DNA of 53,822 nt, the filler included, from Jimgerdemannia flammicorona (taxonomy: Eukaryota), in assembly GCA_003990765.1 (NCBI GenBank). It is 3 parts of 3 records of this genome, joined end to end, with 100 filler letters (N's around TTAATTAATTAA, not from the genome) between each part and the next. Parts side by side here need not be neighbours in the genome. Positions count along the whole stretch, not along the records: positions 1 to 17,878 come from RBNJ01002377.1; 2 more parts are not named here. One strand, 5' to 3'. Positions 1 to 50,380 of the stretch are shown here, piece by piece. The translations under genes were made by a program, and so were the position numbers. Numbering within the stretch: position 1 is the first letter of the stretch; each line of letters begins with the position of its first letter. The notes under the pieces were generated by a model. The model worked only from the letters and a program-made list of their open reading frames with translations. It was not told where the DNA came from and did not search any database.

Positions 1-2643
1 GCACACATATACCATTGGAGAAAACTTTCCCCTGGAGGAACAACTTCTCAAGATTCTGCACCAGAACGAAGGAGTACTTGCTACAGACTTAAGAGATATC
101 CACAATCAAGAACCCAAGTATCACTATGAAGTTGACACTGGTGATACCAAGCCTATCTACCAGAAAGCCAGACCCATACCACCTGCCTACAGAGAGTGGC
201 TGTGAGCCGAACTCAAGGAAATGGAAGAAGCTGGAATCATCAAGCAAGCTATCAGCCCCTGGGCCTCACCCATTGTCCTTGCCCCAAAGAAAGGAAGCAA
301 GCCTAAAGAGTTTGCACCAAGACTCTGCATTGACTACAGGAAACTCAATGCCATTACCAAGAAGGATAGACAGCCCTTGCCAAATATTCAAGAAATCCTT
401 ACCACCCTTAGAAGCAAAGCCAAATACTACACCACCTTGAATCTGTTCTCAGGCTTCCATCAGATCGGTCTCACTCAAGATGCCAGTGAGAAATCAGCCT
501 TCATCACACCTGATGCCACCTATATCTATCTGCGAATGCCATTTGAAATGTGCAATGCCCCAGCAAGTTTCCAGCGAATGATGAACAGAGTCTTCAGCAA
601 CAAGATTGGAAAATGGCTCTTTGTCTATGTTGATGATGTGATCATCTTCAGCAACACTGCACGGGAACATGTCAATCACATACAGCTAGCCCTCAAGAGG
701 CTCAAGGAGCATGGCCTCTACATCAAGCCCAAGAAATACAAGTTTGCAGCTCAAGAAATCACCTATGTAGGACACCTCATCAACCAGACCAGAATCCACA
801 CAAACCTCATGAAGATCGAGGCTATTGTAGCCTACCCAAGACCCAGAACAACCACAGAAGTCTATGCCTTCCTTGGACTGGCCAGCTACTACAGAAGATT
901 CATCAAAAGATACTCCAACATTGCAGCACCTATCTATGAGCTACTGAAGAAGGAGACCAAATTCAAATGGATCAAGGAGTGCCAAGAAACCTTCAATGAA
1001 CTCAAGACCAGGTTGACCCAAGCACCCATCCTCAGAAGACCAGACTGGAGCCTAGAATTCATCCTGCAGACAGATGCAAGTGTTATAGGACTTAGAGCAG
1101 TCCTAGCTCAGAAGAAAGATGGACATGAATATATCATCTCCTACGCAAGCCGAGGTACCCATAGAGTGGAACAGAACTATGAGTCATGCAAGCTTGAATG
1201 CTTAGCGGTAGTTTGGGCAGTAGACAAGTTCCACTACTACCTAGCTGAAAAACACTTCACTATTCAAACAGACTATTCTGCTCTTGCCTGGCTATTCCAC
1301 ACTCTGAACCCCAAGGAATATATGCCAGATAGATCTACAGGCTGCAAGAATATGACTGTACTATCAAGCACTGCCCAGGAAAGACCAACACCAATGCCAA
1401 TGCACTCTCAAGGATACCCCAAAACAGCCCCATCAAGACTATTCAACATGAATAAGGAGCTATACTATGGATTAATTAGCTACCTTGGGCAGTAGAAGAT
1501 GCCCAACCACCTCAAACCCTGGACAATCACCATCATCAACTGGACTTGGAAACAGTTTGAATTAGACAACACTACACTCAGAAAAAGAGGAAAGCTAGTA
1601 ATACCTGAACACAAGAAGTATCAAGTAATGAAGGAAGTACATGAGCAAGGACACTTAGGGGAAACTAACATATATGACAAGGCAAGAAGAACCATATGGT
1701 GGCCCAAGATGAAAGAAGACCTGCACCAATTTGTCAAAGGGTGTGACAAGTGCCAAAAACAGAAACAAGATCAGCAAGACCAGGCACCTGGATCATCAAG
1801 AATTGAGCCTTTCCCCTTCCACCACATCGCAATAGATATCATTGGACCACTACCAGTAACACTATCAGAAAACTGCTATATTATAGTTATTGTAGACCTC
1901 TTCACCAAATGGATAGAGGCAGGAGCATTACAAGAAGCCAATGCCCTCTCTATAGCCAATTTCCTACACCGAGAAATCATCTGCCACTATAAGACACTAA
2001 AGCAAATCACAACAGACCATGGTATAGAATTTGTCAATGGATTCTATGAGATAATGTACCAGAAATACAAGATCTAGCACATCAAGACCACTGCATACCA
2101 CCCTCAAGGAAATGGACAGACAGAGAGAACCAACAAGACCCTTAAGAACATCCTAGCAAAGATCTCAGAGACATATGAGAATTGGGATAACTATCTCCCA
2201 ACTGCCCTCTCTGTTCTATGAGACATATGGTCACAGAGCACACATTTTACCCCAAGAGAGCTGCTCTTCAGAGAAGAAGATTCTAATGGAACCTCAGCTA
2301 CAAATCTAGACCTAACTTGGAGATAAGTTGATGCAGAAATCCAGAGACTACACCAAATCAGGAAGAAGGCTGAAGATTACATCTCCAAGTCATAAGCACT
2401 GACAAGGAAGAATGCAGAAAAGAATCACAAGGCCCTAGAACCCATCCGAATTGGAGAAAAGGTTCTACTGTATCAAAATATGGTAAAAGCCTCATGGTCA
2501 TGAAAACTGGAGCCCAAATGGGAAGGACCCTTCTATGTGCAAGATATCAAGGGAACTATCTTCTAGCTTAGAAAAATCTCATGGACCATACTGCCTACCA
2601 CAGTATATAGGAACAGACTCAAGAAGTACCATGAACCTATATA
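1..2643 (+). pseudogene. Gypsy pol (RT, RNase H, integrase) with stops and frameshifts
   Basis: Motifs SPWASPIVL, RLCIDYRKLN, MPF.MCNAPASFQ, YVDDV, QTDAS, H..GH...WWP...CDKCQ, IAIDIIGP, TDHGIEF, YHPQGNGQTERTN, KWEGPF. Confidence 0.95.
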
Positions 2644-2998
2644 AGAGAAGCAAAATGTAATAACTGCCCATGAGGTTCTAGTCCACAAATCATAACAGCA
2701 TGTCCCATAACCAGCAGGCTATCTGTCTGGACTATTCTCTAAGGGATACGGTACTGACAACTACTCATCCATAAGACTTTCACAGTCAGAGGAGTTTGAA
2801 CCATCAACTGATTGGTCAAGATCAGAATCAGGCCCTTGCTCTATATGAAGGGAGTGACCCTTCACTATCACACCAAAATACAAAGAGAAGACACTAGCCC
2901 ATAAATACTAGTTTTTGACCCCTTGCCAGAGGTTATGGGATCAGCAAACTTTTCAAGACTGGACCAATGAATAAGGATACTCAGGAAGATCCTTATTC

Positions 2999-3008
2999 AG
3001 GAGGAAGA
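2999..3008 (+). promoter_or_regulatory. Polypurine tract (PPT) of Gypsy copy A
   Basis: AGGAGGAAGA directly precedes the TG that starts the LTR. The same arrangement occurs at 8482-8491 on the minus strand. Confidence 0.8.
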
Positions 3009-3250
3009 TGTAATGGTGACCCCAGAATGATGACATCAGCACAGGAGACAGCCTTTCCTTATAAGCCATCAGATCGGAGCACAAGAAGATTATATGGCAT
3101 ACGAGATGAGCAATGATGACCAACTGTGAGTCATTGTGACCACAGCATGAGCATCCTGAAGAATATAAAAGAAGGATCAAGGAACCACAGTAGCAGCAAC
3201 CAATAAGAACCACAAATCCCAAAATAGCTCAAAGACTTACCACAAACAAA

Positions 3251-4054
3251 ATGCCTGCTGTCTGCCAAACCTCAAGGTCAAGGAATCACCAAGGTATCTC
3301 AGTTGAGGAAAGGATATTCCAAGACATCAGAAGAGCCATGAGGACCTGCTCAAGAAGGACTCCTAGTGTCAACCTGGGTACTGCAGACCCTTATCACTTT
3401 ATCCTCTACCACTGTGAAATGGAAACAAGGATCACCATTGCTACCGAATGCCTCCAAATGTGGCAGGAGTATGAAATAGGAAACCTCCTCTGCCGGGAGT
3501 TCCTACAGACCAGCACCCAAGAGCTACAAGATGCCACTCCCATGGATATACATGAAACAAGGATAGCTAGGAAGATTAATCAGATCTTCAGGTATGTACC
3601 ATGATCGATCCCCAACTTGGAGTATATTAGAGTCTCAGATTTCAGAGACCTATCATCCCGCTGTATCAATGCACTAGAAGCCAGGGTGACTACAGAAGCC
3701 CAGTCCACTATCACCCTCAACAGTGAAGAAGTAGAAGACTTCTGGTACCCTATCCTCCAGGACAACCCAGATCAATTCCTGCAAGGATTGATCTCAGTAT
3801 TCTAAGACTCAAGTATCTGGATTAGATCTCCCCAAGACCCCACATTTGTTCCTTATTTTGTGGAAGAGAACCTCATAGACTGGAGAGCTCCAGACCTTGT
3901 CTCTGATTTCCCTGCCACAGCCGAACATGATGATGTCATCAATGACATCATCCTATATAATATCAAAGTATGTGAAAATGATGAATTCGTGGATCTCATC
4001 TCCTTCAGTGATGATGATGATGAAGCCCCCATAATCCTGAACTTTCTGCTCTAA
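3251..4054 (+). pseudogene. LTR-encoded orphan ORF (~267 codons, acidic C-terminus) interrupted by two C-to-T-type stops
   Basis: ORF-track pieces 3251..3604, 3617..3805 and 3860..4054 are in one frame, separated by TGA and TAA. Homologous pieces occur in the copy B LTRs and at 21899-22812. Confidence 0.75.
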
Positions 4055-4064
4055 GTTCTTTATT

Positions 4065-4190
4065 ACACTGAATAATACCAGCACCGGTATTCTCATATAA
4101 CACTGGATAATGCCAGCACCAGCATTCTGAGGTGATGCAAAATTGTTCCAGCACCAGTATTTTGATGTGACACTAAATAATGCCAGCCCT
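4065..4190 (+). repeat. ~35-bp imperfect tandem repeats (x4) in the LTR U3 region
   Basis: Recurring unit ACACTG(A/G)ATAAT(A/G)CCAGCACC(A/G)G(T/C)ATTCT, located upstream of the TATA box. Confidence 0.7.
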
Positions 4191-4501
4191 GGAACTTAGT
4201 AGTTTTAGTTATTGGAATTTATATTTAGCTTTATATCTTAGCAACCATTGAATTATATTTTATATAAATACCTCTCTTATTTCCTCTGAAATAAAGTCAG
4301 TCTTCTCAGTGCAATACACACACTTCCTTGCAAGCAATCTAAGAGATAACAAGATAGTTAAAGATAAGAAGTTTGAGGACTATAAGACCTTGGGAAGGCA
4401 CTCCAATAAGAACTTGCTTATAACAAACTTGAGTTAGTCCAAAAGATACACCTTGAAGAGAATCTGGTATATTTGAAGGACTCAGTGACCACTATGTGAC
4501 A

Positions 4502-6976
4502 ATAAATAGGATAGTTCTTTAGAGATCACAATTGTTAGAAATATATAATTTATTCTTGTAATAGATAGTATTGTCCTTTAATTGATATTGATGATATTGA
4601 GAGTACTTGTTGATATTAATATTACTCAGAATTTTTTGAAGTACTTGAGCTTTTATATTATTAGCACATATTGCAATAATTTATTCTATAATAGAATTAA
4701 TAACTAAGGTGATGATTTGTATAAATTCTTCAATTGGTAGTCTAGAGATAGTATCAGTAATAATAGTTTCTTTATTAGGGCAGTATTGTATTTTATAGTC
4801 AAAATTAGTAAGAACTTTTATCTATCTGATTTACTTTTGGGAAAAGATAGCCTAAGTCTTGATATTGATTAAGATTTATAATATATCAATATAGTGAAGT
4901 ATACTCTTTCAAAATATAGATACTATTTAAATCAAGATGTCTATAATGACTAATATTTCCTTCTTGTAAGTAGTATAATTAATTTCAGTATTATTGAACT
5001 TATAAGAATAATAGGTCACAAGATATCTTTCTTATATAAGAACTACTCCAAGAGCAAGGTCAGAGGTATCTATAGTAACTTTATATAAAAAGGCAGAATT
5101 TACTACTTAAAGAACTAGAGTAGTTATTAGAGCATTTTTAAAACTTAGAAGATAGTATCTTATTTTAGTCACTATTTAACAAGATTGATAAAATATTTTC
5201 CTTACTTTATAGTCTTCAGTTATACTTTTATTTTACTACTTTTAATTAATTGAGTAAGAGCAGTAGCAATTTTGCTAAATTTTGTAATAAAATACATATA
5301 GTAGTTTGCTAATTCTAGAAATAACTAGAGGTTCTTTCCCTTTTTTAGTCTAGGTCACTTCTTGATTGAAGAGATTTTACTGAGATTTACTTTAATTCTA
5401 TCAGATATAATAATATATCTAAGGAATTGAATTTCTTTTAAAAGGAATTCACATTTACTGAGTTTTGTATAAAGTTGGTTCTCTTAAAGTTTCAGTAGTA
5501 CTAGTTTAAGATATTTAAGATATTCCTTCAGAGTTTTGCTGAAGACTAGAATATTATTAATATAGATAATATTAAATTTGTCTAGATATAGATATAGAAT
5601 GATATTAATTAGAGTCTGAAAGATTATAGAAGTATTAGTTAAGTCAAAAGGCATAATTAGGAACTCAAAATATCTATAGCAAGTTTGAAAGACAGTTTTT
5701 TAAATATCTTCTTCTTTTATAGTAATTTATTAGTATCTATCAAAGGAGCTTATAAATTGAAGGTTTGTAAACCTGTCAAAGATCTTATCAATTGAGAATA
5801 ATGGATAATAGTTTTTAATTATCTATTTATTGAGATCTCAGTAATTAATATACATTTAGATATCTCCTTCTTTTTTGATAATAAAGATATCTTATATACT
5901 ATATAGTGATATACTTGGTCTAATAAATCCTTATTCTAGGAGTTTATCAATTTTTTCCTTAGGTATATTAATTTCTCTAGAAAACATATAGTAGATTGAC
6001 TTGAAGACTAGTTTAGCATCTAGTATGGTCTTGATTGTATAGTCAACTACTTGTTTGAGTAGTAGTCTTTTAGAAAGTTTCTTTGGAAATATATCTTGAA
6101 ATTTCTAGAGAAGAGGTCTGACTCAACTATCAACTTTAAAAAAGTCTTTCTTAAGATTTTCTGGTTCTTTTTTGAATAAGTATATAGAGATAGTATAAAG
6201 AGAATATTTCTTTACTAATTTTTTAAGTTAGAGTTTGTTAATATAGATGATTCTTAGACTAGAGTTACTAGAGTTGAGTGAATTACTTTCACTTTATAGT
6301 TTAAAACTATAGTATTTTTTCTTAATAGTCAAAGAGTGGTTCACTTAGTCTATCATGAGTTTTTCTTATTTTAACCATAGTGTTTTAAGAATAATCTTAT
6401 TATCTAGAAGTGGTATAATTTAGAGAATAACATATACTTAGTAATCATTAATTTTGAAGGATAGATTGTAGACTTCCTTACTAATAATATATAAGGTTCT
6501 ATCAGCAGTAGCAATTGCTTAAATTTATTGTACTAGAGAGATCAGAACTTTAAGTCTGTTGACTGTTTCTTTATTGATAAAATTGTCAAAAGCACTACTG
6601 TCTATCATGATTTTAACAGAGACTTGATCAATAAAAGCTTATAAGCAGTTTGTCTAATCTAATAGTGGTCATTTCAACTATCAGTAGTTTTCTCCTATTA
6701 GTTCTTTATTTGGTCAGTTTATTAATATTTGAGAAATAATTATCAATTATTCAGAAAGAGTATATTTCAATATCATGAGAGCACTAGCTACTAGGTACAA
6801 ATTCTTCTTCAATTTTCTTATAGAATTATTTTTCTTTATTCACAATAGATTGGGCTAGTACTTTATATCTAGATAATCTAAATTCTATTGATTTTTGAAT
6901 AATAAGTAATAGTTTAGAAACTTCCTTAACTAATAAAGTAGACTCAATTTTCTCAAATAGAATCTGAGTAATATAT
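4502..6976 (-). mobile_element. Old, heavily mutated Gypsy pol relic of another family, interrupted by copies A and B
   Basis: The minus strand near 5630-5680 reads YFEFLIMPFDLTNT (consensus YE..VMPFGLTNAP). The sequence is very AT-rich and has no intact ORFs. Confidence 0.75.
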
Positions 6977-8481
6977 TGTCACATAGTGGTCACTGAGTCC
7001 TTCAAATATGTCAGATTCTCTTCAAGGTATATCTCTTAGACTAACTCAAGTTTGTTATGAGCAAGTTCTTATTGAAGTGCCTTCCCAAGGTCTTATAGTT
7101 CTCAAACTTCTTATCTTTAAACTGTCTTGTTATCTCTTAGATTGCTTGCAAGAAATTGTATATAAGTGAACCAGAACTGACTTTATTTCAGAGGAAATAA
7201 GAGGAGTATTTATACAAAATATAATTCAATGGTTGCTAAGATATAAAGCTAAATATAAATTCCAATAACTAAAATAAAATGCCAGAGCAGAAAAAACTGC
7301 TAAGTTTCAGGATTGGCACTAATAGTTGTACAGATTCAGGATACTGGTATAATTCAGTATTACATCAGAATACTGATACTGGCATAATTCAGTGTTATAT
7401 CAGAATGCCAGTGCTAGCATAATTCAGTGTAACCAAAGAACTTTAGAACAGAATATTCAAGACCATAGGGGCTTCATCCTCATCATCACTGAAGGAGATG
7501 AGATCTGTGAATTCATCATTGTTGTACATTTCACATGCTTCAATATCATATGAGATGACATCATTGCTAATGACATCATCATATTTGGCAGTAGTGGAAA
7601 GGAGGTCTGGGGCTCTCCAGTCTATGAGGTTCTCTTCCACAAAATAGGGGACAAATGTGAGGTCTTGGGGAGGTCTAACCTGAATACTTGGGTTTTGGAA
7701 TATTGAGATCAATCCTTACAGAAATTGGTCTGGGTTGTCCTGAAGGATAGGATGCCAGAAGTCTTCTACTTCATCACTATTGAGGGTGATAGTGGACTGG
7801 GCTTCTGTAGCTACCCTGGTTTCTAGTACATTGATATGGTGAGATGACAGGTCTCTGAAATCTGAGACTCTAACATACTCCAAGTTGGAGATCAACCATA
7901 GTATATGCCTGAAGATCTGATGAATTTTCTTAGCTGTCCTTGCTTCTCATATATCCATGGGTGTGGCATCTTGTAATTCTTGAGGGCAAGCCTGTGGGAA
8001 CTCCTGGTAGAGGAGATTTTCTATTTCATCATACTCCTGCCATATTTAGAGGCATTCAGTAGCAATGGTGATCCTTATTTCCATTTCATAGCAGTAGAGG
8101 ATATAATGATAAGGGTTACCAGTACCCAGGTTAACACTAGGAGTCCTTTTTGAGTGGGTCCTCATGGCTCTTCTGATGTCTTGGAACATCCTTTCTTCAA
8201 CCGAGATGTCTTAGTGGTTCCTTAACCTTGAGATTTGGTGAGCAGTAGGTATTTTGTTTATAGTAAGTCTTTGAGCTATTTTGGAATTGGTGGGTCTTAT
8301 TGGTTGCTGCTACTGCAGTTTCTTGATCCTTCTTTTATATTCCTCAAGATACCATACTGTGGTCACAATGACTCATAGTTGGTCATCATATGCCATATGA
8401 TCTTCTTATACTCCAATCTAATAGCTTGTAAGGAAAGGCTGTCTCCTGTACTAATGTCATCATTCTGGGGTCACCATTACA
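6977..8481 (-). repeat. 3' LTR of copy B
   Basis: Reverse complement of 3009-4501 and direct repeat of 14163-15654. Confidence 0.92.
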
Positions 8482-8849
8482 TCTTCCTCCTGAATAAGAA
8501 TCTTCTTGAATATCCTTATTCATTAGTCCAGTCCTGAAAAATTTGCTGATCCCATAACCTCTGGCAAGGGGTTGAAAAGTAGTATTTATGGGCTGGTGTC
8601 TTCTCTTTGTATTTTGGTATGATGGTGAAGAGTTACTCCCTTCATATAGAGCAAGGGTCTGATTCTGATCTTGATCAATTGGTTGATAGTTCAAACTCCT
8701 CTGGCTTTGAAAGTCTCATGAATGAGTAGTTACTAGTGCTGTATCCCTTAGAGAATGGTCCAGACAGATAGCCTGCTGGTCACAGAATATGCTGTTACAA
8801 TTTGCAGACTAGAACCTCATGGGCAGTCATCACATTTTGCTTTTCTTAT

Positions 8850-11800
8850 ATAGCTTCATGGTACTTCTTGAGTCTGTTCTTATGTATCATAGTAGACAGT
8901 ATAGTCCCTGAGATTTTTTTAAGCCAGAAGGTAGTTCTCTTGATATCTTACATATAGAAGGGTCCTTCCCATTTGGGCTCCAGTTTTTGCAACCATGAGG
9001 CTTCTATTATATTTTGATACAGTAGGATCTTTTCTCTGATTTGGATGAGTTCTAGGGTCTTGTAATTCTTTTCTGCATTCTTCCTTATCAGTGCTTGTGA
9101 CTTGATGATATAATCTTCAGCCTTCTTCCTGATTTGGTATAGTCTCTGGATTTCTGTATTGACCCATCTCCAAGTTAGATCTAGATTTGTGGCTGAGGTT
9201 CCATCAGAATCTTCTTCTCCAAAGAGCAGTTCTCTTGGGGTAAAGTGTGTGCTCTGTAACTATATGTCTTGTAGGATAGAGAGGGCAGTTGAGAGGTAGT
9301 TATCCCAATTCTTGTATATCTCTGAGATTTTTATCAGAATGTTCTTGAGGGTCTTATTGGTTCTTTCTGTCTATCCATTTCCTTGAGGGTGGTATGCAGT
9401 AGTCTTGATGTGCTGAATCTTGTATTTCTGATATATTATCTCATGGAATCTATTGACAAATTCTATGCTACAGTCTGTTGTGATTTGCTTTGGTGTCTTG
9501 TAGTGACAGATGATTTCTCAGTGCAGGAAGTCAGCTATAGAGAGGGCATTGGCTTCTTGTAATTTTCTTACTTCTATCCATTTTGTAAAGAGATCTATAA
9601 TAACTATAATATAGCAGTTTCCTGATAGTGTTACTGATAGTGGTCCAATGATATCCATTGTAATGTGGTGGAAGGGGATAGGCTCAATTTTTGATGACCT
9701 GGGTACCTGGTCTTGCTGATCTTGTTTCTGTTTTTGGCACTTATTACACTCTTTGATAAATTGGTGCAGGTCTTCTTCTATTTTGGGCCACCACATAGTT
9801 CTTTTTACCTTGTTATATATGTTGATTCCTCCTAGGTATCCTTGCTCATATACTTTCTTCATTACTTGATACTTCTTATCTTTGAGTATTACTAGCTTTT
9901 CTCCTTTTCTAAGTGTAGTATTATCTAGTTCAAACTGTTTCCAAGTCTGGTTGATGATGGTGATTATCCAGGGTTTGAGATGGTTGGGAATTTTCCACTG
10001 CCTAAGGTAGCTGATTAATCCATAGTATAACTCCTTATTCATATTGAATAGTCTTGATGAGGGTGATTTGGGGTGTCCTTGAGAGTACATTGGTATTGGT
10101 ATTAGTTCTTCCTGAGCAGTGCTTGATAGTAGTCATACTCTTGCAGCCTGTAGATCCATCTGGTATATATTTCTTTAGGGTTTAGAGTGTGGAATAGCCA
10201 GGCAAGAGCAGAATGGTCTGTTTGAATGGTGAAGTGTTTTCCAGCTAGGTAGTAGTAGAACTTATCTACTGCTCAAACTACTGCTAAGCATTTGAGCTTA
10301 CATGACTTGTAGTTCTGTTCTACTCTACAGGTACCTCAGCTTGTATAGGAGGTGACATATTCATGTCCATCTTTCTTCTGAGCTAGGACTGCTCCAAGTC
10401 CTATAGTACTTACATCTGTCTGCAAGATGAATTCTAGGTTCCAATCTGATCTTCTGAGGATAGGTACTTGGATCAATCTGGTCTTAAGTTCATTGAAGGT
10501 TTCTTGGCATTCCTTGGTCCATTCAAATTTGGTTTTCTTCTTCAGATAGGTGCTGCAATATTAGAGTATCCTTTGATAAATCTTCTGTAGTAGCTGGCCA
10601 GTCCAAGGAAGGCATGGACTTCTGTAGTTGTTCTGGGTCTTGAGTAGGCTGCAACAGTCTCAATCTTTATGGGTTCTATGTAGATTCTGGTCTAGTTGAT
10701 GAGGTATCCTAGGTAGGCAATTTCCTGGGCTACAAACTTGCATTTCTTAGACTTGATATAAAGGCCATGCTCCTTGAGCTTCTTGAGAGCTAGCTGTATA
10801 TAATTAATATATTCCTGTACAGTGTTGCTAAAGATGATCACATTATCAATATAGACAAAGAGCCATTTTCCAATCTCATTGCTGAAGACTCTGTTCATCA
10901 TTTACTGGAAACTTGCTGGTGTATTGTATATTCTAAATAGCATTCACAGGTAGATATAGGTGGTATAAGATGTGATAAAGGCTGATTTCTCACTGATATC
11001 TTGAGTGAGACCAATCTGATGGAAGTCTGAGAACAGATCCAAGGTGGTGTAGTATTTGGCTTTGCTTTCAAGGGTGGTAAGGATTTCTTGAATATTTGGC
11101 AAGAGCTACCTATCCTTCTTGGTGATGGCATTGAGCTTCCTGTAGTCAATGCAGAGTCTTGGCACAAACTCTCCAGGCTTACTTTCTTTCTTCAGAGTAA
11201 GGACAATGGGTGAAGCCCAGAGACTGATGGCTTGCTTGATAATTCCAGCTTTTTCCATTTCCTTGAGTTCTGCTTGTAGTCATTCTCTGTAGGCAAGTGG
11301 TATAGGTCTGGCTTTCTGGTAGATGGACTTAGTATTACCAGTGTCAACTTCATAGTAATACTTGGATTCTTAATTGTGAATATCCCTGAAATCTGTAGCA
11401 AGTACTCTTTTATTCTGGTGCAGGATCTTGAGAAGTTATTCTTTTAGAGGAAAGTTTTCTCCAATGGTATATGTATGCTTGTTCTGGTCCCTGTCTTTCT
11501 TGTGCTCAAGTTTGGTAATCTTAGTAGTAGCATAGGCTCCTCTTCCAGTAGATCTAAAGTCTTGTTCTCCTCTCTTAGTCTTGATGAGTTTGATGGCTTC
11601 AGTGATCTTGGGCTTCTTGATTTCATGGATCAGCATCTGGCCAATCCTATCATACTTCTTGACTTTGAATGGGGTGGTGGGGTTGTGATTTCTGACTATG
11701 AGGAAGATCTCACCAGTATAATCAGGGTCAATTACTTCTCCTTTAACTGAGATTTCACTTTTGGCCAGACTGCTCCTGGTCTTCATAATTCCAGCATAGT

Positions 11801-14106
11801 TCTCTAGCAGCTTGACTCCAATTCCAGTGCCAAGTAGAGTGGTGGTCTGTAGTTTGAGGGTAGTATCTTGAATACTGACAAGGTCTATTCCTATGGCTCC
11901 TTCAGTCTTGTATTCTGGGATCTTGGCTTTGGGGTAGAACTTCTTAACCTTGAGGGTGATATCTGGTTCCTGTCTCTCCTCATCATCACTGTCAGCTTGA
12001 AGCTCTAGGGGCTAGTCATCTTCTTCAGCTTTTCTTTTTACTTTAGCAGCTTCTTGCTTGTGTTTCTATTGGTGGATTTTTCTGACTTCACTAATACAGA
12101 ACCAGCAGTCATTCAGGTGTTCAGAGTAATATATCCTAGTACCATGGGAGCATCTTCCTTGAGGGGCATAGTCATCAATGATCTTGTTGTACCACTACTC
12201 ATCTGTGAGCTTGGGTGTCTTGTTCTTGTTCACTGAATATATGAAGACTTCAGTGTCCTCTTCATCTCCTTCCTCTATATCTGGTAGGACTCCTTTGTGG
12301 ACATTGATAGAGACTTGTACCATTCTTCCTCTATATTTGATCTGCATCTTCTGGGCATTGAGGTCAATGATGGTCTTGGCCTTGTGAAGCCATTGGTTGC
12401 TAATGAGTATGTCATAGTTAGTAGTACTTATAATGATCACATCTACTGGAATAGTAGCTCTTCCTATCTTAATGGGAACTTCTCAGATTTTGCTAAGGGG
12501 GGTAGCTCATATACCATCTGCTGTGATATAGACCATCTTAGTGGACTCTTTAATGTTCCAGCCTAGGCAGTCAATTGCCTTCTTGCTCATAAGGCATCCT
12601 CTAGCACTAGTATCAATGATGGCATCAAAGATACAATCTTTGATCTGATATAGGGTATAGGCTGATGTCTTGCACTGATCTTCAGATTCTTCACCTGAGT
12701 CTTTTGATTCTTCTTGTATATTGTGAGCTTCTACAATCTTGTACTCTTGATTCTTGACAGTAGTTGCAAGTCCTACTCTCAACTGCTGTCTGAAGGCAGA
12801 GACTTCAGCTAGCTGTCCAAAAGTAACATTGATCTTCTATTTCTTAAGATTCTTGTAGATATCATACTAGTGGATCTTAGTCTTATGCAGCTTCTGTTCC
12901 TTCTTGCTTTTGCTTTCTCCTGAGACTGGAGTAATGTCTTCAATGATTTGGCAGATAGCTTCATCTAACTCCATATCTTGATCAATCTCCTTAGGTTGAG
13001 TCTTGCTTTGAATAGTGATAGCTGGGGCCTTCTTTGGTCTTCCAACTGGCTTTCTGTTACTCTTCTTATCATAGGGCTTGGACTGGGTTCTGGTACCTTT
13101 AGTAGCAGGGTAGAATTTGAGCTCCTCATAGTATTCTTCATCATCAGTATCACCAATCTCCTTGATGACTACTGCATTGGTTTGTTCTCTAGTCCTGCTA
13201 GCATTGCTTAGTTGGGCTTTGCATCTTGTTTTGATCATACAATTCTTTGCATAGTGGCCTTCTTCTCCACATCTGAAGCATGTAATATTGTATTATTCTA
13301 TAGCAGCTGCAAATCTCTGCACTGGTCTCCTGTTGGCACTTCAGACTTCTCTAACAACATTACCAAGATATGTAGTCATCTCAGTAAACTGCTTAGCAAG
13401 TTCCTCCACTGGGTCAGCTTTGGCTGCCTTGGGGATAGGTAGAGAGGGTTGTCTGTTTACAACTGTAGCAGATATGATACTAGTTGGCTTTGATGACTCC
13501 ATCTTGATGCTAGTTATTTTCTCTATTGAGTGTTCAGCAGGGTGTCTGGCAGTCTAATATCTCCATACAAAGACCACTTTCTGATCAAGAGTTAGTACAG
13601 CTGGGGTAGACTAAATTGCTAGGGCAATTTCAGGGTGAACTCATTTGAGGAAGATTGAATCTGCTATTTGTTCCTTAAGGGCATCACCATAGCTAGCCAA
13701 GACAATCTGGTGGCAGATTTGGGTATATAATGAGTTGGGATCTTCACTGAGCCTCTGGCAGATAGTATTGAGTTAATTCTTGAGAGCTTGCTTGATCTCT
13801 TTAGTATAGTATGTTGTTCTGAGGAAGGCCTTCATATTGGCAAGTTTGGCTGCACTATTATCAACAATAGTGGCTATATTGAACTTATCCCTGGCAGGTC
13901 CTCTGAGGCTGACTTATAGAAGGGCCAATTGTGTATCTATACCAAGAACTCATATGGTAGCAAATTGTTCAAAGTCTTCAATGAAGGTCAGGATTGACTC
14001 TTCAGTAATATATCTATAGAATGTAGAGAGATGCATTTCCATCTTATCTTAAATTCTTGCAGGGGTGACTCTTGTAGTCAGAGTAGTTGTTATAGAGGTT
14101 GTTCAT
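8850..14106 (-). pseudogene. gag-pol polyprotein pseudogene (gag-CCHC-PR-dUTPase-RT-RH-IN)
   Basis: ATG at 14106. CFRCGEEGHYAKNC near 13240-13280, protease IIDTSA near 12610, YIDNV near 10845, integrase near 9400-9800. Confidence 0.9.
11545..11960 (-). pseudogene. dUTPase domain between protease and RT
   Basis: Trimeric dUTPase motifs A.GIDL, RSSLAK, VIDPDYTGEI, DRIGQ and RGEQDFRSTG (consensus RG..GFGSTG). Confidence 0.9.
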
Positions 14107-14141
14107 TTTTCAGCTTGAAAGTGAGGAATTCATCTTGAATC

Positions 14142-14159
14142 ACTAGTCAATGGGCACCA
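14142..14159 (-). promoter_or_regulatory. Primer-binding site of copy B
   Basis: TGGTGCCCATTGAC lies 3 nt inside the 5' LTR end and begins with TGG, complementary to tRNA CCA. The priming tRNA was not identified. Confidence 0.75.
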
Positions 14160-14162
14160 AAT

Positions 14163-15654
14163 TGTCATGTAGTAATCACTGAGTTCTTTAAATATACCAG
14201 ATTCTCTTCAAGATATATCTCTTAGACTAACTCAAGTTTATTATAAGCAAGTTCTTATTGGAGTGCCTTCCTAAGGTCTTATAGTCCTCAAACTTCTTAT
14301 CTTTAAACTATCTTGTTATCTCTTAGATTGCTTATAAGAAATTGTATGTAAGTGAACTAGAACTGACTTTATTTCAGAGGAAATAAGAGGAGTATTTATA
14401 CAAAATATAATTCAATGGTTGCTAAGATATAAAGCTAAATATAAATTCTAATAACTAAAATAAAATGCCAGAACAGGAAAAACTGCTAAATTCCAGGGTT
14501 GACACTAATGGTTGTATAGGTTCAGAATACTGGTATACATAATTCAGTATTATATCAGAATACTGATGCTGGCATAATTCAGTATAACTAAAGAACTTTG
14601 GAGCAGAATATTTAAGACCATAGGGGCTTCATCCTCATCATCACTGAAGGAGATAAGATCTGTGAATTCATCATTATTATATATTTTACATACTTCAATG
14701 TCATATAGGATGATGTCATTACTGATGATGTCATCATGTTCAGTAGTGATAGAAAGGAGGTCTGGGGCTCTCCAGTCTATGAGGTTCTCTTTCACAAAAT
14801 AGGGAATAAATGTGGGGTCTTGGGGAGGTTTAACCTAGATGCTTGGGCCTTAGAATACTGAGATTAATCCTTACAGTAATTGGTCTGGATTGTCCTGAAG
14901 AATAGGATGCTAGAAGTCTTCTACTTCATCACTATTGAGGGTGATAGTAGACTGGACTTCTGTAGCTATCCTGGTTTCTAGTGCATTAATATGATGGGAT
15001 GATAGGTCTCTGAAATCTGAGACTCTAATATACTCTAAGTTGGGGATCAATCATAGTGCATGCCTGAAGATCTGATGAATCTTCTTAGCTATTCTTGCTT
15101 CTTATACATACATATATCCATGGATGTGGCATCTTGAAATTCTTGAGGGCTGGCCTGTGGGAACTCCTGACAGAGGAGGTTTTCTATTTCATACTCCTGC
15201 TATATTTGGAGACATTTGGTAGCAATAGTGATTCTTGTTTCCATTTCATAGTGATAGAGAATATAATGATAAGAGTCACCAGTACCCAGGTTGACACTAG
15301 GAGTCCTTCTTGAGCAGGTCCTCATGGCTCTTCTGATGTCTTGGAACATCCTTTCTTCAACTGAGATGTCTTGGTGGTTTCTTAACCTTGAGGTTTGGCA
15401 AGTAGCAGGTATTTCATTTGTAGTAAATCTTTGAGCTATTTTAGGATTAGTGGGTCTTATTAGTTACTGCTACTACAGTTCCTTGATCCTTCTTTTATAT
15501 TCCTCAAGATATCCATACTGTGGTCACAATGACTCACAGTTGGTCATCATTACTCATCTCATATACTATATGATCTTCTTATGCTCTGATCTGGTAGCTT
15601 GTAAGGAAAGGCTGTCTCCTATACTGATGTCATCATTCTGAAATCACCATTACA
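14163..15654 (-). repeat. 5' LTR of copy B
   Basis: Minus strand TGTAATGG...TGACA; direct repeat of 6977-8481. Confidence 0.92.
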
Positions 15655-19058: not shown

Positions 19059-22000
19059 TGTGACAGTTGATCTAAATTAGGAATATGAATCAGAGGAATA
19101 AATATTTGATTATAGTATTTAAATCTAATTTCCAAATATAGTACAGCCTTACAAATAGCAGTCATTTTACAAATATATAAACTTTACAAATATAGAGATT
19201 TTATAGATATAGAATCTTTATAATTATAGAGATTTTACAAATATAAAGAATCTATACTTGTGAAAGTAACTTATAGGAAATATAGTTATAACTTAGCTAT
19301 CTTATAGTTAGCAAACTTATATAAATATACCCAGTATCTAGAGTGAATAAATCTCAGATCAAAGTAGTTCAAAGCAAAGAAAAAGTAAGAAACTAGTAAG
19401 CCTATAGACAGATATACTTTAAACTCACCCACTATATTCCTAAGACTCTGTAGAGTCAAAAAAGATCAAGTTTCAAGATACAGAAATCTGATATACTCAC
19501 TCAGTTACACATCTACTACATTATAACTTAGTACTCATTGATTAGTAATTCAAGATAAATTTCTCACTTTTAAGCTAAATAATAAACAACTACTACTACT
19601 TAAATAATTATACAAATCAAACCAAGACATCCAGATAAGATGGATATATATGAGACTATCAGTATTCTACAGATATACTTCAGAAGAATCAATCATTATC
19701 TTCATTGATGATTTCAAGCAATATGCTACCATAAGGACCTTGACAGCAAGGTAGTAAGTAGTCTTCATATCCTTCAGTCTCTGAGATCTAGCAAGAGTAG
19801 CATTTACAGTTATAACCTATATGAGAAATGATGATAATACTATACTAGTAGTACAGAAGGCCTGACCTTGAGCCACCTACTATATAGATAAGATCAAGCA
19901 AGTTCTGAAGGATCAGCTCAATACAATATACCAAGAAATAAGTAAAGATTCAAATACATTCTATATCAGAATTTGATATTAGATAATCCTTATAGATTAT
20001 ACTACTGCTATTCAAGATCAAGTAGCCAAGAGCAACCTTATGAAGAGAGTCTACCCAGAGATAGTTATAGCTATCCACTCATTATCAATAGTTCTGGATC
20101 TAGTACAAAAGATTATCTATACTTAGTAATATTAGATAGTCAGACATTTATAAGACTATATAATGGAAAGAGTCACTAGAGTTAGAATTGAAGCACTCAA
20201 GACAACCAGCATAATTCCTACCACAGTGATTAATCAAAACACATCTCAGCCAAAAGCTACTGAATAGTAGAGAAACAGTTATCCCATGGAGAAGCTAGCT
20301 AAGAAGTTGCTAAAATAACTATCTATCTAGAAGGTGTGGTAAAAGAAATTAGAGGAAGAGACCATTGCTCAGTTCAAAAGTTTGCCACTACCTTAGATAA
20401 GAAGAGAGATACCTACTATATTTGTGAAGAAGAAGGCTATTACTCATATAAATATATAAGTGAAACTAAGTATAAGGCTCAGCCAAGCAATACTACTCAA
20501 AATAGGAAATACACTAATACTATTATCTTTAAAGAAATTAGAGAGTCTGATGAAGAATAATAGGAAACCTACCCTGCACAGACCATTAAGAAGGATGTCT
20601 ATAAGAAATCTTACAAGAGACTACTAGGGAGACCTAAGAAGAACTCTGCAGAAAAACAGATAGAGACTGCTACAAAAAGCCAAGCTAAAGAAATAGATTA
20701 AGATATGGAATTAGAACAGGCTGTCTAAGATATCATTCAAGAAACTACTTCAGCCAACAAGGGAGAAAAGGAAAAGAAGCTTCACAAAATCAAGATCTTT
20801 AAGTATGATATCTTTAAGGACCTCAGTTAACAAAAGATCAATGCAACCTTGGCCAGCTAGTGGAAATACTCATATTTAGATAGAAAATGAGATATAGACT
20901 TACCAAGACAACTAAGGAGCAAGGTTGGAAGATAACTGAGACCAAAAATATTCAAGAAGACTTAGGAGAAAAGAGTGTAGACAATCATAAGACCTCTGCC
21001 TATACAATTTATCAGATTGAAGATAGAGTCTTCAAAGCCATTATTAATACAAGAGCAGAAGGATGTCTCTTTAGCAAAAAGACAGCAGACTGTCTAAAAT
21101 TCTCCACTATAAATAGCTGCTGGATTCTTAAGCTAAATGGTCAAGTCTTTAGAAAACTTTTCCAATTGAGCTCTCAAAATATAACATGCAATTTGTATAG
21201 ATAGTTTTACTGATATATATAGCTCAATGTATCTCTGGTTATTTATATACTATTTATCTCTTTACTAATAATATTCTGGCTCAATGTTCACTTCAACTGC
21301 TATTCAATTTACTTACTGAATTTTGTATCATGTTGGAGTTTATATATCTCAAGTCATTAGTTATATGACTGGTTGTTTAGAATGATGGAGAAGTTAGTGA
21401 TCATTTTTACAGATTCTCTATATTTCTTAGCAGTACTCTATTATCTACTGATAGGTTGGCAATTATTCTGGTATTCTTGGCTAAGTTTCCTGGTAGTTTT
21501 TTGTAATGGCAAATTTTAACTGACTGATTTATATCTCAAGTATATAGTCTTGACTTATATTCTGAGTTTCAAGATGATTTTTTGTCAATTTTTGTAGTGG
21601 TTCTTGATATCCTAAGTGGTAGTTATTTTCTTATCTTACTGTGATAGCATATTCTGGTTTTGTGGCAGTAGTAGCAAGAGTGATTCATCTTCTCAATCTC
21701 TGAGCTTTATGCTCTAGATAGATATTTTGATTTCTAGAATCATTCATTCTCTTAGAGATAGTATATTTTTCTATAAACTTTTTTATACTTCAACCCTACT
21801 CTCTAGACTAAAGAAGAAGACCCTCAAGATTTAAAAGAAACATTAAGAGAAGAAATACAAAGCATTAACTATAAATAGAAGACTTATAATAAAACAAAAT
21901 ATCTACCATCTGCCAAATAATCAGATCAAGGAGCTATCCAGGCCCATCAGTTCAAGAACAGATATTCATAAATATCAAAAGAGTAATGAGGTTATATATA

Positions 22001-23434
22001 AGAAGGACCTCTAGTCTGAACCTTTATATAAGAGACTCTTACTACTATACTCTCAACTACTGAGAAATGGAGACAAGAATTACTACTACTACTGAATATC
22101 TTTAGATGTAATAAGAATATAAGCTAGGACATTACCTTCACTAAAAGTTCATATAAGCTAGCTCTCAAGAGATTACAGATACCACATATATAGATAGATA
22201 TAAATAGAAACTGATCAAAAAAGTTCATCAGATCTTCAGACATATACTCTGAGCTATTCATAATCTAGAATATATCAAAGTCTCTGATATTCAAGAATTG
22301 ATAAGCCACTATATAGACTACCTTGAAGAAATGGTTACAGAAGAGGCCCAATCTACTATCATAGTCAAGAGTGATGAGATTCAAGATCTTTGGAACTCTA
22401 TCCTAGAGGACAATCTAGACCAATTCATTTATAGTCTGATTTCACTATTTCAAGACCCTTTACTGAGAGTCTACTATCCCCAGAATTCCACAGATATTTC
22501 TTATTTTGTAGATGACCTCACCATTGATTAGAGACCTCAAGAGCAGAATGACCTCACACTTTTTGATAATATCACCTCCTAGACAACTTGGAGAATGATG
22601 ACAACCCACTTATTTTATTAGAAGATAATATTAATAACTTTCTTTCCTCACTCCCAGAGTCCACCACTGACCCCAGCACAATTGTGGGAGATATAGAAAA
22701 TAATTTGGCCAGACTCCCTAAAGAAAATGAGAAGAAAGATAAGAATGATATAATTCTAGTTACATTGAATTTTGAGATATATAAGGATGGTTCTATTAAC
22801 CAAATTGAGTAAGTTAGTGGTTGTACAAACAGTAACTGTATATTAACTAGTCAAATTTGTCATAAATATAAAATTTATCTTATCTGATTAGTTAGTCACC
22901 TAAATTTCAAAAGTACACTAAATAGTATCTTCTAGTAATTGTGAGTTACAATCAATTATCTAACCTTATTCTTAGTCTAAAAGTTGTATAAATATCCTCT
23001 AATCTGTAGTAAATAAATCTCAGTCAATTGGTTTATGATACCAACTTAAGTTTGAGTATAAAAACTTAAGAATTACTCTTACTACTATCTCAAAAATCAG
23101 ATACAAGACCCTGGAACTCAAGATATAAGTCAAGACTACACTTTTAAGATATAAGTCAATTGGTATCAAATATAAGTTAATTAGTTCTGAAAGACAAAGA
23201 AAGTCAAGTATAAGAACTTTGGGAAAAGACTCTAAGAGTTGAAGGAATTACTTTTGCTACTACTATTATAAAAATTGAATATAAGACTACAGACTATATG
23301 AAATTCAGAATACAAGTCAGCTTGAGTTTATCTGACTAGTAGTAGTATATCACTAAGATCATTATGAGTTATTATGAGTTCAGATGTAGATCATCTTATA
23401 ATCAAGATAAGTTATAGTTGAGTTATAATTTACA
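19059..23434 (+). mobile_element. Diverged, internally deleted relative of the A/B Gypsy family (LTR-like region, PBS, gag, protease start, LTR ORF)
   Basis: 19527-19590 aligns with the PBS and gag start of copy B. Gag and protease homology (HKTSAYTIYQIEDRVFKAIINT) runs to ~21100. The LTR-ORF homologue is at 21899-22812. Boundaries are approximate. Confidence 0.7.
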
Positions 23435-29990: not shown

Positions 29991-30073
29991 CATCTCTCTC
30001 TGGTACCCCTCAGGTTACACAACTTTTTGGAAAGCAACTACAACATTATTTTTGGAGAAAAGAGACTAGCAAC

Positions 30074-32098: not shown

Positions 32099-32128
32099 AG
32101 AAAGCTTGATAATATACCATTTTTTACT

Positions 32129-35784: not shown

Positions 35785-35855
35785 TGGGAGGGTATCCTGT
35801 ATACTTATTAATAGATGGGTAATAAATGGCAGAGTCCAAGTGACTATAAAAAAAA

Positions 35856-35955
35856 NNNNNNNNNNNNNNNNNNNNNNNNNNNNNNNNNNNNNNNNNNNNT
35901 TAATTAATTAANNNNNNNNNNNNNNNNNNNNNNNNNNNNNNNNNNNNNNNNNNNN
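35856..35955. other. Assembly gap with TTAATTAATTAA linker
   Basis: Same 100-nt N/linker block as the first gap. Confidence 0.97.
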
Positions 35956-50370: not shown

Positions 50371-50380
50371 ACTTCCCCCT
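50331..50380 (+). promoter_or_regulatory. Putative -1 ribosomal frameshift signal
   Basis: A_AAA_AAA is phased to ORF1 codons and followed by a G-rich/C-rich stem with GGGGAAG/CTTCCCC pairing. The RT lies in the -1 frame. Confidence 0.6.

What the first reader, a model, noticed from the sequence alone, without database searches (positions are those of the whole stretch)
3251..4054. Conserved orphan protein encoded inside the LTR (U3) of a fungal Gypsy family
Seen: a ~267-codon frame lies wholly between the PPT/TG start (3009) and the TATA box (4261), and the same frame is present in all three LTR copies. A diverged element at 21899-22812 keeps the peptide with conservative changes (VTTEAQSTITLNSEEVEDFWYPILQDNPDQFLQGLISVF versus VTEEAQSTIIVKSDEIQDLWNSILEDNLDQFIYSLISLF). 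Known: U3-located ORFs occur in retroviruses (MMTV sag, and HIV nef in part); I do not know of one as a standard Ty3/Gypsy feature. Inference: an accessory protein once under selection, for example a transactivator or anti-silencing factor given its acidic tail.
Basis: partly seen in the sequence, partly recalled or inferred. Interest (0 to 1): 0.75.

Follow-up and report, generated by a model that had tools for sequence, protein, structure and literature searches.

The report
Protein gene hidden inside a retrotransposon LTR
A family of fungal Gypsy-type jumping genes carries an extra, evolutionarily conserved protein gene of unknown function inside its terminal repeat, a place where such elements are not known to hold genes; the copies in this window are dead, but intact relatives exist elsewhere.

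Summary
The repeat 3009-4501 is a true LTR (TG...CA, polypurine tract before it, primer-binding site after the 5' copy) of a gag-PR-dUTPase-RT-RNaseH-IN Ty3/Gypsy element. The 267-codon frame 3251-4054 lies wholly inside it, upstream of a conserved TATAAATA/AATAAA/TCAGTC block. None of the four window copies is open: they carry 2, 4, 6 and 9 or more in-frame stops, almost all C>T or G>A derivatives of CAA, CAG or TGG. Three copies have lost the ATG.

Outside the window there are intact relatives of 271-342 aa at 35-86% identity, including a metagenome contig with the same TATA-ORF-TATA-AATAAA layout. Amino-acid changes are far fewer than the nucleotide changes predict (0 of 1000 permutations; omega 0.16-0.33). 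Between subfamilies, only the ORF part of the LTR still aligns.

The protein is an orphan: no Pfam, PDB, fold or gag/pol match, and no membrane segment. It has a basic N-terminus and an acidic tail ending in LNF. A second conserved TATA box 65-87 nt upstream, with an ATG-free leader, suggests an LTR-contained mRNA. Function and expression remain untested. I rate it a new variant of retroelement accessory genes, analogous in position to MMTV sag.

The parts
206..2680 (+). 3' part of pol of element A (RT, RNase H, integrase), broken by stops; pol ends about 330 nt before the LTR
   Evidence: Pfam RVT_1, RT_RNaseH, Integrase_H2C2 and rve; three-frame read of 2000-3010
2999..3008 (+). Polypurine tract AGGAGGAAGA directly before the LTR
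   Evidence: Sequence; the same tract stands before the 3' LTR of element B
3009..4502 (+). 3' LTR of element A (TG...CA; about 1493 bp)
   Evidence: Termini shared by three copies. Homology to the 5' LTR of element B starts exactly at 3009. Contigs of other runs leave the window at 3009 and at 4501/4504 (table 7)
3164..3171 (+). Upstream TATA box (TATAAAAG), 87 nt before the ORF's ATG; proposed promoter of the ORF mRNA
   Evidence: Present in A, both B LTRs and L001 (65 nt before its ATG); TTTAAAAG in the diverged copy, 69 nt before its start. There are 8 ATGs in 3009-3163 and none in 3164-3250. Promoter activity is inferred, not shown
3251..4054 (+). LTR-embedded ORF, copy A: 267 codons, a pseudogene with two in-frame stops (TGA 3602-3604, TAA 3803-3805)
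   Evidence: homologues; selection tests
4263..4270 (+). Downstream TATA box (TATAAATA); proposed promoter of the genomic RNA, marking the end of U3
   Evidence: Conserved with the same spacing to AATAAA (25-27 nt start to start) in A, B3, B5, D and L001, although the surrounding LTR no longer aligns between subfamilies
4290..4302 (+). AATAAA poly(A) signal followed by TCAGTC (initiator-like; motif name recalled)
   Evidence: conserved in all five copies (B copies read GTCAGT)
6977..8481 (-). 3' LTR of element B, with ORF copy 8252-7446 (4 stops, ATG>ATA)
8482..14162 (-). Internal region of element B: gag (CCHC), protease, dUTPase, RT, RNase H, integrase; many stops
   Evidence: Pfam on X-read-through translations; dUTPase 11436-12011
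14163..15654 (-). 5' LTR of element B, with ORF copy 15412-14601 (6 stops, 8-nt insertion, ATG>ATA), followed by the primer-binding site TTTGGTGCCC
21830..23025 (+). Diverged LTR-like copy (subfamily of L001): TTTAAAAG 21830, ORF remnant 21899-22534 and beyond, TATAAATA 22987, AATAAA 23012, TCAGTC 23020
   Evidence: It is preceded by a gag-PR fragment at 19650-21096 that is 39-56% identical to element B

Best explanation
SHOWN. The 1.5-kb LTR of a dUTPase-bearing Ty3/Gypsy lineage contains a genuine protein-coding gene of about 270-340 codons. It has been kept by purifying selection across subfamilies. All four copies in this window are dead, inactivated mainly by C>T and G>A transitions of the kind fungal genome defence (RIP-like) produces. 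The product is a soluble orphan protein with a mostly basic, arginine-rich N-terminus, a conserved core that models as helical at low confidence (residues ~55-215) and a variable acidic tail ending in a conserved LNF motif.

INFERRED, roughly even odds. The gene is a self-contained cassette within U3. A conserved TATA box (3164) fires about 30-50 nt upstream of the first ATG (3251). The message runs through the ORF and the downstream genomic promoter, and is polyadenylated at the LTR's own AATAAA (4290), giving an mRNA of about 1.1 kb. Either LTR, or a solo LTR, could make it. The genomic RNA starts just after AATAAA at the TCAGTC initiator-like site, so it carries the ORF only at its 3' end.

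GUESS, about one in three. The protein acts in the nucleus on the element's own expression. It could activate or gate the downstream genomic promoter, or handle its RNA, in a two-promoter early/late arrangement like the internal promoter and Tas of foamy viruses.
For: Real gene under selection:
- One search found 6 homologues of 230 candidates. One search found 4 real hits in an exhaustive HMMER scan of 1.84 billion representatives. One search found 9 of 4360 candidates.
- Three members are full length and open: P0003 (271 aa), P0010 (342 aa, 35-37% identical) and the L001 ORF (323 aa). They share the MPA/MPP start, 14 invariant core columns and the C-terminal LNF.
- Copy A versus L001 gives omega 0.21 (NG86), 0.24 (ML) and 0.33 (LWL85). 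For the first ~210 codons the values are 0.16-0.27. Shifted-frame controls give 0.94 and 1.80.
- In the permutation test, 131-133 codons change amino acid against 175-177 +/- 5 expected (0 of 1000). L001 has 0 stops against 7.8 expected (0 of 1000).
- Second codon positions are depleted for transversions, 43/17/34 by codon position.
- Of the 1494-bp LTR, only 3232-3894 still aligns with L001.

Inside the LTR: boundaries.

Cassette:
- The order TATA1, ATG-free leader, ORF, TATA2, AATAAA, TCAGTC is conserved in A, B3, B5, D and L001.
- The start context CAAA(A)ATGCC is shared by A and L001.

Protein features:
- No segment is hydrophobic enough for a membrane span (maximum Kyte-Doolittle 0.47-0.74).
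- The first 50 residues have pI 10.6-12.0 in 3 of the 4 proteins examined.
- The tail has a net charge of -13 to -25.
Against: - No transcript, protein or activity was observed. The only two public runs holding related sequence are small, of guessed type, and kept as contigs.
- The neutral control was not perfectly neutral under my tests. Changes between the two LTRs of element B since insertion gave NG86 omega 0.29. They also gave slightly fewer amino-acid changes than permuted (42-44 against 54 +/- 4; 2-11 of 1000). Transition bias therefore flatters omega, and the absolute values should be read loosely.
- dS is near saturation (1.1-1.7).
- The database proteins are gene calls on short contigs (600-4848 nt) whose context I could not see, so only L001 and the window show the LTR setting.
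- The basic N-terminus is missing in P0010 (net charge 0).
- Both structure models are of low confidence (mean pLDDT 42.5 and 55.8).
- The U3/R boundary, both promoters and the poly(A) site are read from motifs only.
Confidence: 0.6

Rival explanations
1. Same gene, different expression route. It is translated from a spliced subgenomic RNA that starts at the genomic promoter of the 5' LTR and joins a leader donor to an acceptor in front of the ORF in the 3' LTR, as retroviral env and sag messages do. The upstream TATA box would be irrelevant or an enhancer element.
For: This is the usual way retroviruses express 3' genes (established knowledge; MMTV sag papers seen only as search listings). 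The ORF lies at the 3' end of the genomic RNA in sense orientation.
Against: No conserved polypyrimidine-AG acceptor lies between the LTR start and the ATG in A or L001. The 155 nt before TATA1 hold 8 ATGs, while the 87 nt after it hold none. That pattern fits a start downstream of TATA1. TATAAAAG is kept at 65-87 nt from the ATG in two subfamilies whose flanks no longer align.
Confidence: 0.18
2. The upstream TATA box (3164) is the element's only promoter. R would then be about 1.1 kb and the ORF would sit in R, making it the first cistron of the genomic RNA and not a U3 gene.
For: TATA1 is conserved and is followed by an ATG-free leader. Nothing measured fixes the U3/R border.
Against: The TATAAATA-N-AATAAA-TCAGTC block is kept with the same spacing in five copies of two subfamilies, inside sequence that otherwise no longer aligns. 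That is hard to explain if it were only a poly(A) region. A 1.1-kb R and an 800-nt ORF ahead of gag would be unusual for LTR elements (established knowledge).
Confidence: 0.12
3. The ORF is a transduced or captured fragment of a host gene carried along in the LTR, without a role for the element.
For: LTR elements do capture host sequences (review PMC7264820, passages read).
Against: According to that review, transduced genes occur in one or a few copies. Here the ORF is in two subfamilies whose gag proteins are only about 40% identical. The exhaustive HMMER scan found no relative outside the family; the two other hits are long repeat proteins matched over about 60 residues. Selection has kept the frame across that divergence.
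Confidence: 0.05
4. It is not a gene. The frame would be a chance by-product of an A-rich, T-poor strand, and the conservation would reflect DNA-level function such as enhancers.
For: The strand is A-rich (AT skew +0.20 over 3001-4000). All window copies are broken. Copy A's own longest open frame (136 codons) is reached by 19 of 1000 shuffles.
Against: L001's 343-codon frame exceeds every one of 1000 dinucleotide shuffles (maximum 217). Constraint is frame-specific and follows codon position. Three full-length open relatives reach down to 35% identity.
Confidence: 0.03

Closest known systems
MMTV sag (superantigen ORF in the U3 of the mouse mammary tumour virus LTR)
   Same: A sense ORF of roughly 270-320 codons lies inside the LTR upstream of the genomic promoter. 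It is therefore duplicated with the LTR and sits at the 3' end of the genomic RNA. In five searches for an ORF inside an LTR this was the only case I saw; it came up.
   Different: Sag is a type II membrane glycoprotein of a vertebrate betaretrovirus (recalled). The protein here has no hydrophobic span, matches no Pfam family at all, and belongs to a fungal Ty3/Gypsy element without env.
Additional ORFs (aORFs) of LTR retrotransposons: Athila/Bagy2 env-like, Grande gene23, RIRE2, Retand, Botrytis Boty
   Same: These are family-wide extra reading frames of unknown function beyond gag-pol, some with their own promoter (review PMC7264820, abstract and passages read).
   Different: The aORFs described there lie in the internal region, mostly between pol and the 3' LTR, and often antisense. 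The terms 'in the LTR', 'inside the LTR' and 'within LTR' occur 0 times in that review. Here the ORF is sense and wholly inside the LTR, 242 nt past the LTR start.
Retroviral 3' accessory genes that reach into U3 or use an internal promoter (HIV/SIV nef; foamy virus bel/tas with its internal promoter)
   Same: These are regulatory or accessory proteins encoded at the 3' end and overlapping the LTR. The foamy virus arrangement of two promoters, an early accessory gene and a late genomic one, is the model for the mechanism I propose (recalled, not tested).
   Different: Those genes only overlap U3 and belong to vertebrate retroviruses. No sequence or fold similarity was found here.
dUTPase-containing fungal Ty3/Gypsy elements (PosPlaTy3-5 of Postia placenta, Phanerochaete chrysosporium elements, Tuber Tmt1)
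   Same: The carrier element has dUTPase between protease and RT. That arrangement is described for PosPlaTy3-5 in PMC2864245 (passages read).
   Different: That paper's figure legend lists an 'additional ORF with unknown function' for some fungal elements. The figure is not held, so I could not see where that ORF lies or whether it is related.
Cassandra TRIM elements with a 5S RNA gene in each LTR (recalled, not looked up)
   Same: An independent transcription unit is carried inside the LTR itself and so is copied twice per element.
   Different: That unit is an RNA polymerase III RNA gene, not a protein gene, and it occurs in plants.

Membership tests
Ty3/Gypsy (Metaviridae) LTR retrotransposon (the carrier) | Domain order PR-RT-RNase H-IN in pol, with gag carrying a CCHC knuckle | tested here: met
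   Pfam on element B finds zf-CCHC, RVP_2, dUTPase, RVT_1, RT_RNaseH, Integrase_H2C2 and rve in that order. Element A has RT, RNase H and IN
Ty3/Gypsy (Metaviridae) LTR retrotransposon (the carrier) | Direct LTRs with TG...CA ends, a PPT before the 3' LTR, a PBS after the 5' LTR, and a short target-site duplication | tested here: met
   Termini; PPT and TGG-starting PBS. The duplication is ATAT or TATAT in an AT repeat, so that one point is only weakly informative
Protein-coding gene under purifying selection | Open frame kept across diverged copies; fewer amino-acid changes than the nucleotide changes predict; codon-position pattern | tested here: met
   Caveat: the neutral control shows a mild bias in the same direction
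U3-resident gene (as MMTV sag) | The ORF lies between the LTR 5' end and the start site of the genomic RNA | tested here: inconclusive
   The ORF lies between 3009 and the conserved TATAAATA/AATAAA/TCAGTC block. The start site itself was not measured, and a rival promoter exists at 3164
MMTV superantigen family | Sequence similarity to Sag; a transmembrane anchor | tested here: not met
   No Pfam family was found for any of 11 members at E <= 1 apart from two chance-level hits. Maximum 19-residue hydropathy is 0.47-0.74
Env-like aORF | Signal peptide and/or transmembrane segments; location between pol and the 3' LTR | tested here: not met
   No hydrophobic span. The ORF starts 242 nt inside the LTR
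gag or pol domain in disguise | Profile or sequence similarity to the element's own gag/pol, or to retroelement polyproteins in databases | tested here: not met
   hhalign against gag of element B gives probability 0.07%. No polyprotein appeared among hits. Pfam found nothing
Retroviral-type transactivator or RNA-export factor (Tat/Tax/Tas, Rev/Rex/Rem) | Nuclear localisation, binding to LTR DNA or element RNA, effect on LTR-driven expression | not testable with these tools
   Only composition fits: an arginine-rich N-terminus and an acidic/hydrophobic tail

The most novel reading that the evidence does not exclude
Each LTR of this Gypsy lineage would be a complete gene cassette (promoter, ORF, poly(A) signal). 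Every LTR, including solo LTRs left after element loss, could then supply a trans-acting factor. That factor either switches on the downstream genomic promoter, giving an early/late two-promoter circuit convergent with foamy viruses, or blunts the host's genome defence. It would be the first accessory gene resident in the U3 of a non-retroviral LTR element, possibly created when the polypurine tract moved upstream of a former 3' accessory ORF.
Probability: 0.3. Interest if true: 0.85.

Novelty: new variant of a known kind. Interest (0 to 1): 0.66.

Why it matters
LTRs are treated as non-coding control regions, and annotation pipelines mask them. A conserved protein gene inside the LTR would therefore be systematically overlooked.

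If the gene is active, three things follow:
- Accessory genes of LTR retrotransposons can live in U3, as in MMTV.
- Each element carries two copies, and solo LTRs may stay protein-coding. That changes how one thinks about trans-complementation and dosage.
- Fungal Gypsy elements may have regulatory circuits of retroviral complexity.

The family (10 database proteins plus the L001 ORF) also gives a concrete orphan protein to test for roles in transposon control or in evading RIP or silencing.

Tried and rejected
- **Whole genome:** none is held, so I could not make copy counts, a solo-LTR census or a co-phylogeny with RT.
- **The listing of cluster members:** The genomic context of P0002-P0010, including the 4848-nt contig of P0010, therefore remains unseen.
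- **Longer or fused forms:** none among 7999 candidates. This is weak evidence, as the tool says.
- **Viral contigs:** 56 pattern matches, none confirmed.
- **Metagenome scan:** 2 loci from 380 pattern matches. L001 is real. I set L002 aside as probably chance (28 residues, 43% identical).
- **P0011 and P0012:** these are 1270-aa repeat proteins matched over about 60 residues, and I dropped them as spurious.
- **Pfam, PDB sequences and ESM Atlas:** Pfam gave only ATG5_HBR (3 of 11 members, best E 0.028) and NpmA (1 member, E 0.026), both below any threshold. PDB sequences gave 0 hits at E <= 10. ESM Atlas gave a best feature score of 0.83 and TM <= 0.33.
- **Structure:** two AlphaFold runs gave mean pLDDT 42.5 and 55.8. 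Foldseek against PDB gave 0 of 21 rows at E <= 0.001. I did not pursue further fold searches on such weak models.
- **Expression:** no RNA holder is listed. The two small-share holders are of guessed type and kept as contigs. Their higher word depth over the LTR than over pol cannot separate copy number from expression.
- **Other checks:** the bacterial promoter/terminator scan is irrelevant to a eukaryote. TGAGTCAT is no commoner in the window than chance (4 matches against 3.05 expected). Earlier findings of this scan held nothing.
- **Literature:** searches found no LTR-embedded protein ORF in a retrotransposon. Searches were false leads. The library lacks most subscription journals and figures, so this is not proof of absence.

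Full report
**1. What is at the site**

The window opens inside a plus-strand LTR retrotransposon, element A. Its RT, RNase H and integrase lie at 206-2077 (Pfam), and the integrase frame trails off near 2680. A purine tract, AGGAGGAAGA (2999-3008), is followed by TGTAATGGTGA at 3009.

That 11-mer occurs three times in the window and 0.03 times in shuffles: at 3009 (+), 8481 (-) and 15654 (-). The end word CTAYRTGACAAT also occurs three times, at 4492-4503 (+), 6975-6986 (-) and 14161-14172 (-). The repeat is therefore about 1.49 kb long, reads TG...CA, and is present three times:
- once as the 3' LTR of element A (3009-4501/2);
- twice as the two LTRs of a complete minus-strand element B (8481-6977 and 15654-14163).

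Homology between A and the 5' LTR of B begins exactly at 3009. The 5' LTR of B is followed by TTTGGTGCCC, a primer-binding site. Its flanks carry ATAT/TATAT on both sides, a plausible but low-complexity target duplication. Contigs from two unrelated public runs depart from the window at 3009 and at 4501/4504 (table 7), which agrees with these ends.

Element B encodes gag (CCHC), protease, dUTPase, RT, RNase H and integrase in that order. It is a Ty3/Gypsy element with a dUTPase between PR and RT. That arrangement is reported for some basidiomycete elements (PMC2864245, passages read).

A fungal host is supported but not proven. The evidence is a ChAPs-domain gene fragment at 43547-44221 and the RIP-like mutation pattern described below.

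**2. The frame**

In copy A, 3251-4054 reads as 267 codons with two in-frame stops, TGA at 3602-3604 and TAA at 3803-3805. The homologous stretches are worse off:
- the 3' LTR copy of B has 4 stops;
- the 5' LTR copy of B has 6 stops and a private 8-nt insertion;
- a fourth, diverged copy at 21899 onward has 9 stops in the first ~215 codons and then loses the frame.

The ATG is ATA in all three of these.

At both of copy A's stops another copy carries TGG or CAA, and nearly all other stops sit where other copies have CAA, CAG or TGG. Changes polarised on the two LTRs of B since insertion number 183. Of these, 160 are transitions and 120 are C>T or G>A, with an excess at CpA (53 of 116, against 240 of 652 available). 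The copies look like a once-open gene destroyed by transition mutagenesis. tblastn with four family proteins finds only these four copies in the window.

**3. Relatives elsewhere**

I read copy A through with X at the two stops and searched with it.
- The word-indexed search found 6 proteins among 230 candidates.
- The exhaustive HMMER scan of 1.84 billion representatives found 6. Four are real. The other two are 1270-aa repeat proteins matched over about 60 residues, which I discarded.
- A profile search found 9 of 4360 candidates.

In all there are ten database proteins (P0002-P0010, P0013), none with a Pfam domain or an informative name. P0003 (271 aa) and P0010 (342 aa, 35-37% identical) are full length and open.

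One metagenome contig, L001 (1345 nt), carries an intact 323-codon ORF within a 343-codon open frame. All members share the MPA/MPP start, a core with 14 invariant columns (for example WNPILQDNPDQ and PYFVEEN.IDWR) and a C-terminal LNF. P0003 and L001 carry W and Q at the two positions where copy A has stops. No longer or fused form was found among 7999 candidates (weak evidence).

**4. Selection**

Copy A against L001 (264 codons, protein-guided alignment) gives the following.

| Method | All codons | First ~210 codons |
|---|---|---|
| NG86 | 0.21 | 0.16 |
| ML with kappa | 0.24 | 0.23 |
| LWL85 | 0.33 | 0.27 |

YN00 failed to run. The same columns read one or two bases out of frame give 0.94 and 1.80.

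Because the mutation spectrum is skewed, I added a permutation test. It keeps the number of each base change and re-deals them over sites of the same base.
- 131-133 codons change amino acid, against 175-177 +/- 5 expected (0 of 1000 permutations as low).
- L001 has 0 stops, against 7.8 expected (0 of 1000).
- In the first 212 codons, transitions fall 29/22/65 and transversions 43/17/34 over codon positions 1/2/3 (p = 1e-6 and 4e-3).

The negative control argues for caution. The two LTRs of element B have diverged only since insertion, yet they still give NG86 omega 0.29 and 42-44 changed codons against 54 +/- 4 expected (2-11 of 1000). A transition-only spectrum therefore mimics some constraint. 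However, only 157 of the 312 A-L001 differences are transitions, and the deficit there is about 8 sd against about 2.7 sd in the control.

Three further observations are independent of these tests.
- L001's 343-codon open frame exceeds all 1000 dinucleotide shuffles (maximum 217).
- Of the whole LTR, only 3232-3894, the first two thirds of the ORF, still aligns between A and L001 (70% identity).
- The diverged window copy follows a gag-PR fragment (19650-21096) that is 39-42% identical in gag to element B. The ORF remnant there is 49-51% identical to P0002 and P0003. The ORF is thus kept about as well as gag across element families.

**5. Anatomy of the LTR**

Five copies of two subfamilies (A, B3, B5, the diverged copy D, and L001) share the same order of signals.
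- TATAAAAG (3164 in A; TTTAAAAG in D) lies 65-87 nt before the ATG.
- The ORF follows.
- About 200-240 nt of unalignable sequence comes next.
- Then come TATAAATA (4263), AATAAA 25-27 nt later (4290) and TCAGTC (4297), an initiator-like word (name recalled).

The 155 nt before the first TATA box hold 8 ATGs. The 87 nt after it hold none, and L001 has none in its 68 nt before the ATG. The start context CAAA(A)ATGCC is shared by A and L001.

My reading is inferred from motifs only. The upstream TATA box drives a separate message of about 1.1 kb that ends at the same poly(A) signal. The rivals (spliced subgenomic RNA; a single upstream promoter with a very long R) are scored in the Rival explanations section.

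**6. The protein**

- It has no hydrophobic span (maximum 19-residue hydropathy 0.47-0.74), so it is neither Env-like nor Sag-like.
- The first 50 residues are basic in 3 of the 4 proteins examined (pI 10.6-12.0; P0010 is neutral).
- The last third is strongly acidic (net -13 to -25), with scattered I/V/L/F.
- It matches no Pfam family, no PDB sequence and not gag (hhalign probability 0.07%).
- AlphaFold models are mostly helical but of low confidence (pLDDT 42.5 for the whole protein, 55.8 for the core). Foldseek and the ESM Atlas gave nothing usable.

Composition suggests a nuclear regulator, but that is a guess.

**7. Comparison with what is known**

The closest positional analogue is MMTV sag. 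It was the only LTR-internal protein ORF I saw in five full-text searches.

Additional ORFs of LTR retrotransposons are well known, but they are described in the internal region. In the review PMC7264820 (abstract and passages read), the terms 'in the LTR', 'inside the LTR' and 'within LTR' occur 0 times.

A figure legend in PMC2864245 mentions an 'additional ORF with unknown function' in some fungal elements. I could not see the figure or its supplement, so a related earlier sighting cannot be excluded.

**8. Verdict**

This is a real, selection-maintained orphan gene inside the LTR of a fungal Gypsy lineage, present here only as pseudogenes. Its expression route and function are inferred. 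I rate it a new variant of a known kind (retroelement accessory genes), with interest 0.66.

Noticed in passing
window 11436-12011 (-): Element B carries a dUTPase domain (Pfam E 4.6e-25) between protease and RT. This arrangement is reported for a few basidiomycete Gypsy elements.
   Followed up: partly
window 4500-7000 and the LTRs of element B: There is RIP-like decay. GC falls to 0.24-0.29 at 4001-7000. Of 183 polarised changes between the two LTRs of element B, 160 are transitions and 120 are C>T or G>A, with a CpA excess and 8 of the 18 CpG-context C sites hit.
   Followed up: partly
window 3127-3134 (also 8368-8375 and 15529-15536, minus): TGAGTCAT, which resembles a bZIP (AP-1/Gcn4-type) site (name recalled), lies about 30 nt upstream of the first TATA box in all three LTRs. 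It is no commoner in the window than chance, and conservation across subfamilies could not be tested.
   Followed up: partly
window 5241-5954 (-): A heavily decayed reverse-transcriptase remnant of a different element (29% identical to element A's RT; Pfam RVT_1 E 7e-9) lies between element A and element B.
   Followed up: partly
window 19650-21096 (+) and 21525-21571 / 23112-23158: A gag-protease fragment of a related family stops abruptly about 700 nt before the diverged ORF-bearing LTR-like copy, and no pol lies between them. A 47-nt inverted repeat (81%) brackets that copy. The structure may be an internally deleted or rearranged element.
   Followed up: partly
window 25000-36000: This stretch has very strong GC skew (+0.28 to +0.50). 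It holds two diverged direct copies about 4.9 kb apart (72-77% identical). The seven ORFs I scanned there have no Pfam match. It is unexplained.
   Followed up: no
window 48722-52679: Two 300-nt direct repeats (97% identical) lie 3658 nt apart around GC-rich (0.48-0.62), T-rich-strand ORFs. One ORF has a weak RVT_1 match (E 4e-4, below Pfam's cut-off). This may be another retroelement of a different kind.
   Followed up: no
window 40680-41078 (-) and 43547-44221 (-): There is a BED zinc-finger ORF (E 5e-5) and a ChAPs (Chs5p-Arf1p-binding) gene fragment (E 6e-22). The latter is the main hint in the window that the host is a fungus.
   Followed up: no
window 3593, 3597, 3604 (table 3): In contigs of one public run (X1) the abundant variant reads C, C and G at these places (depth 835 of 835). 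The TGA of copy A is therefore TGG in the common form of the family there.
   Followed up: partly
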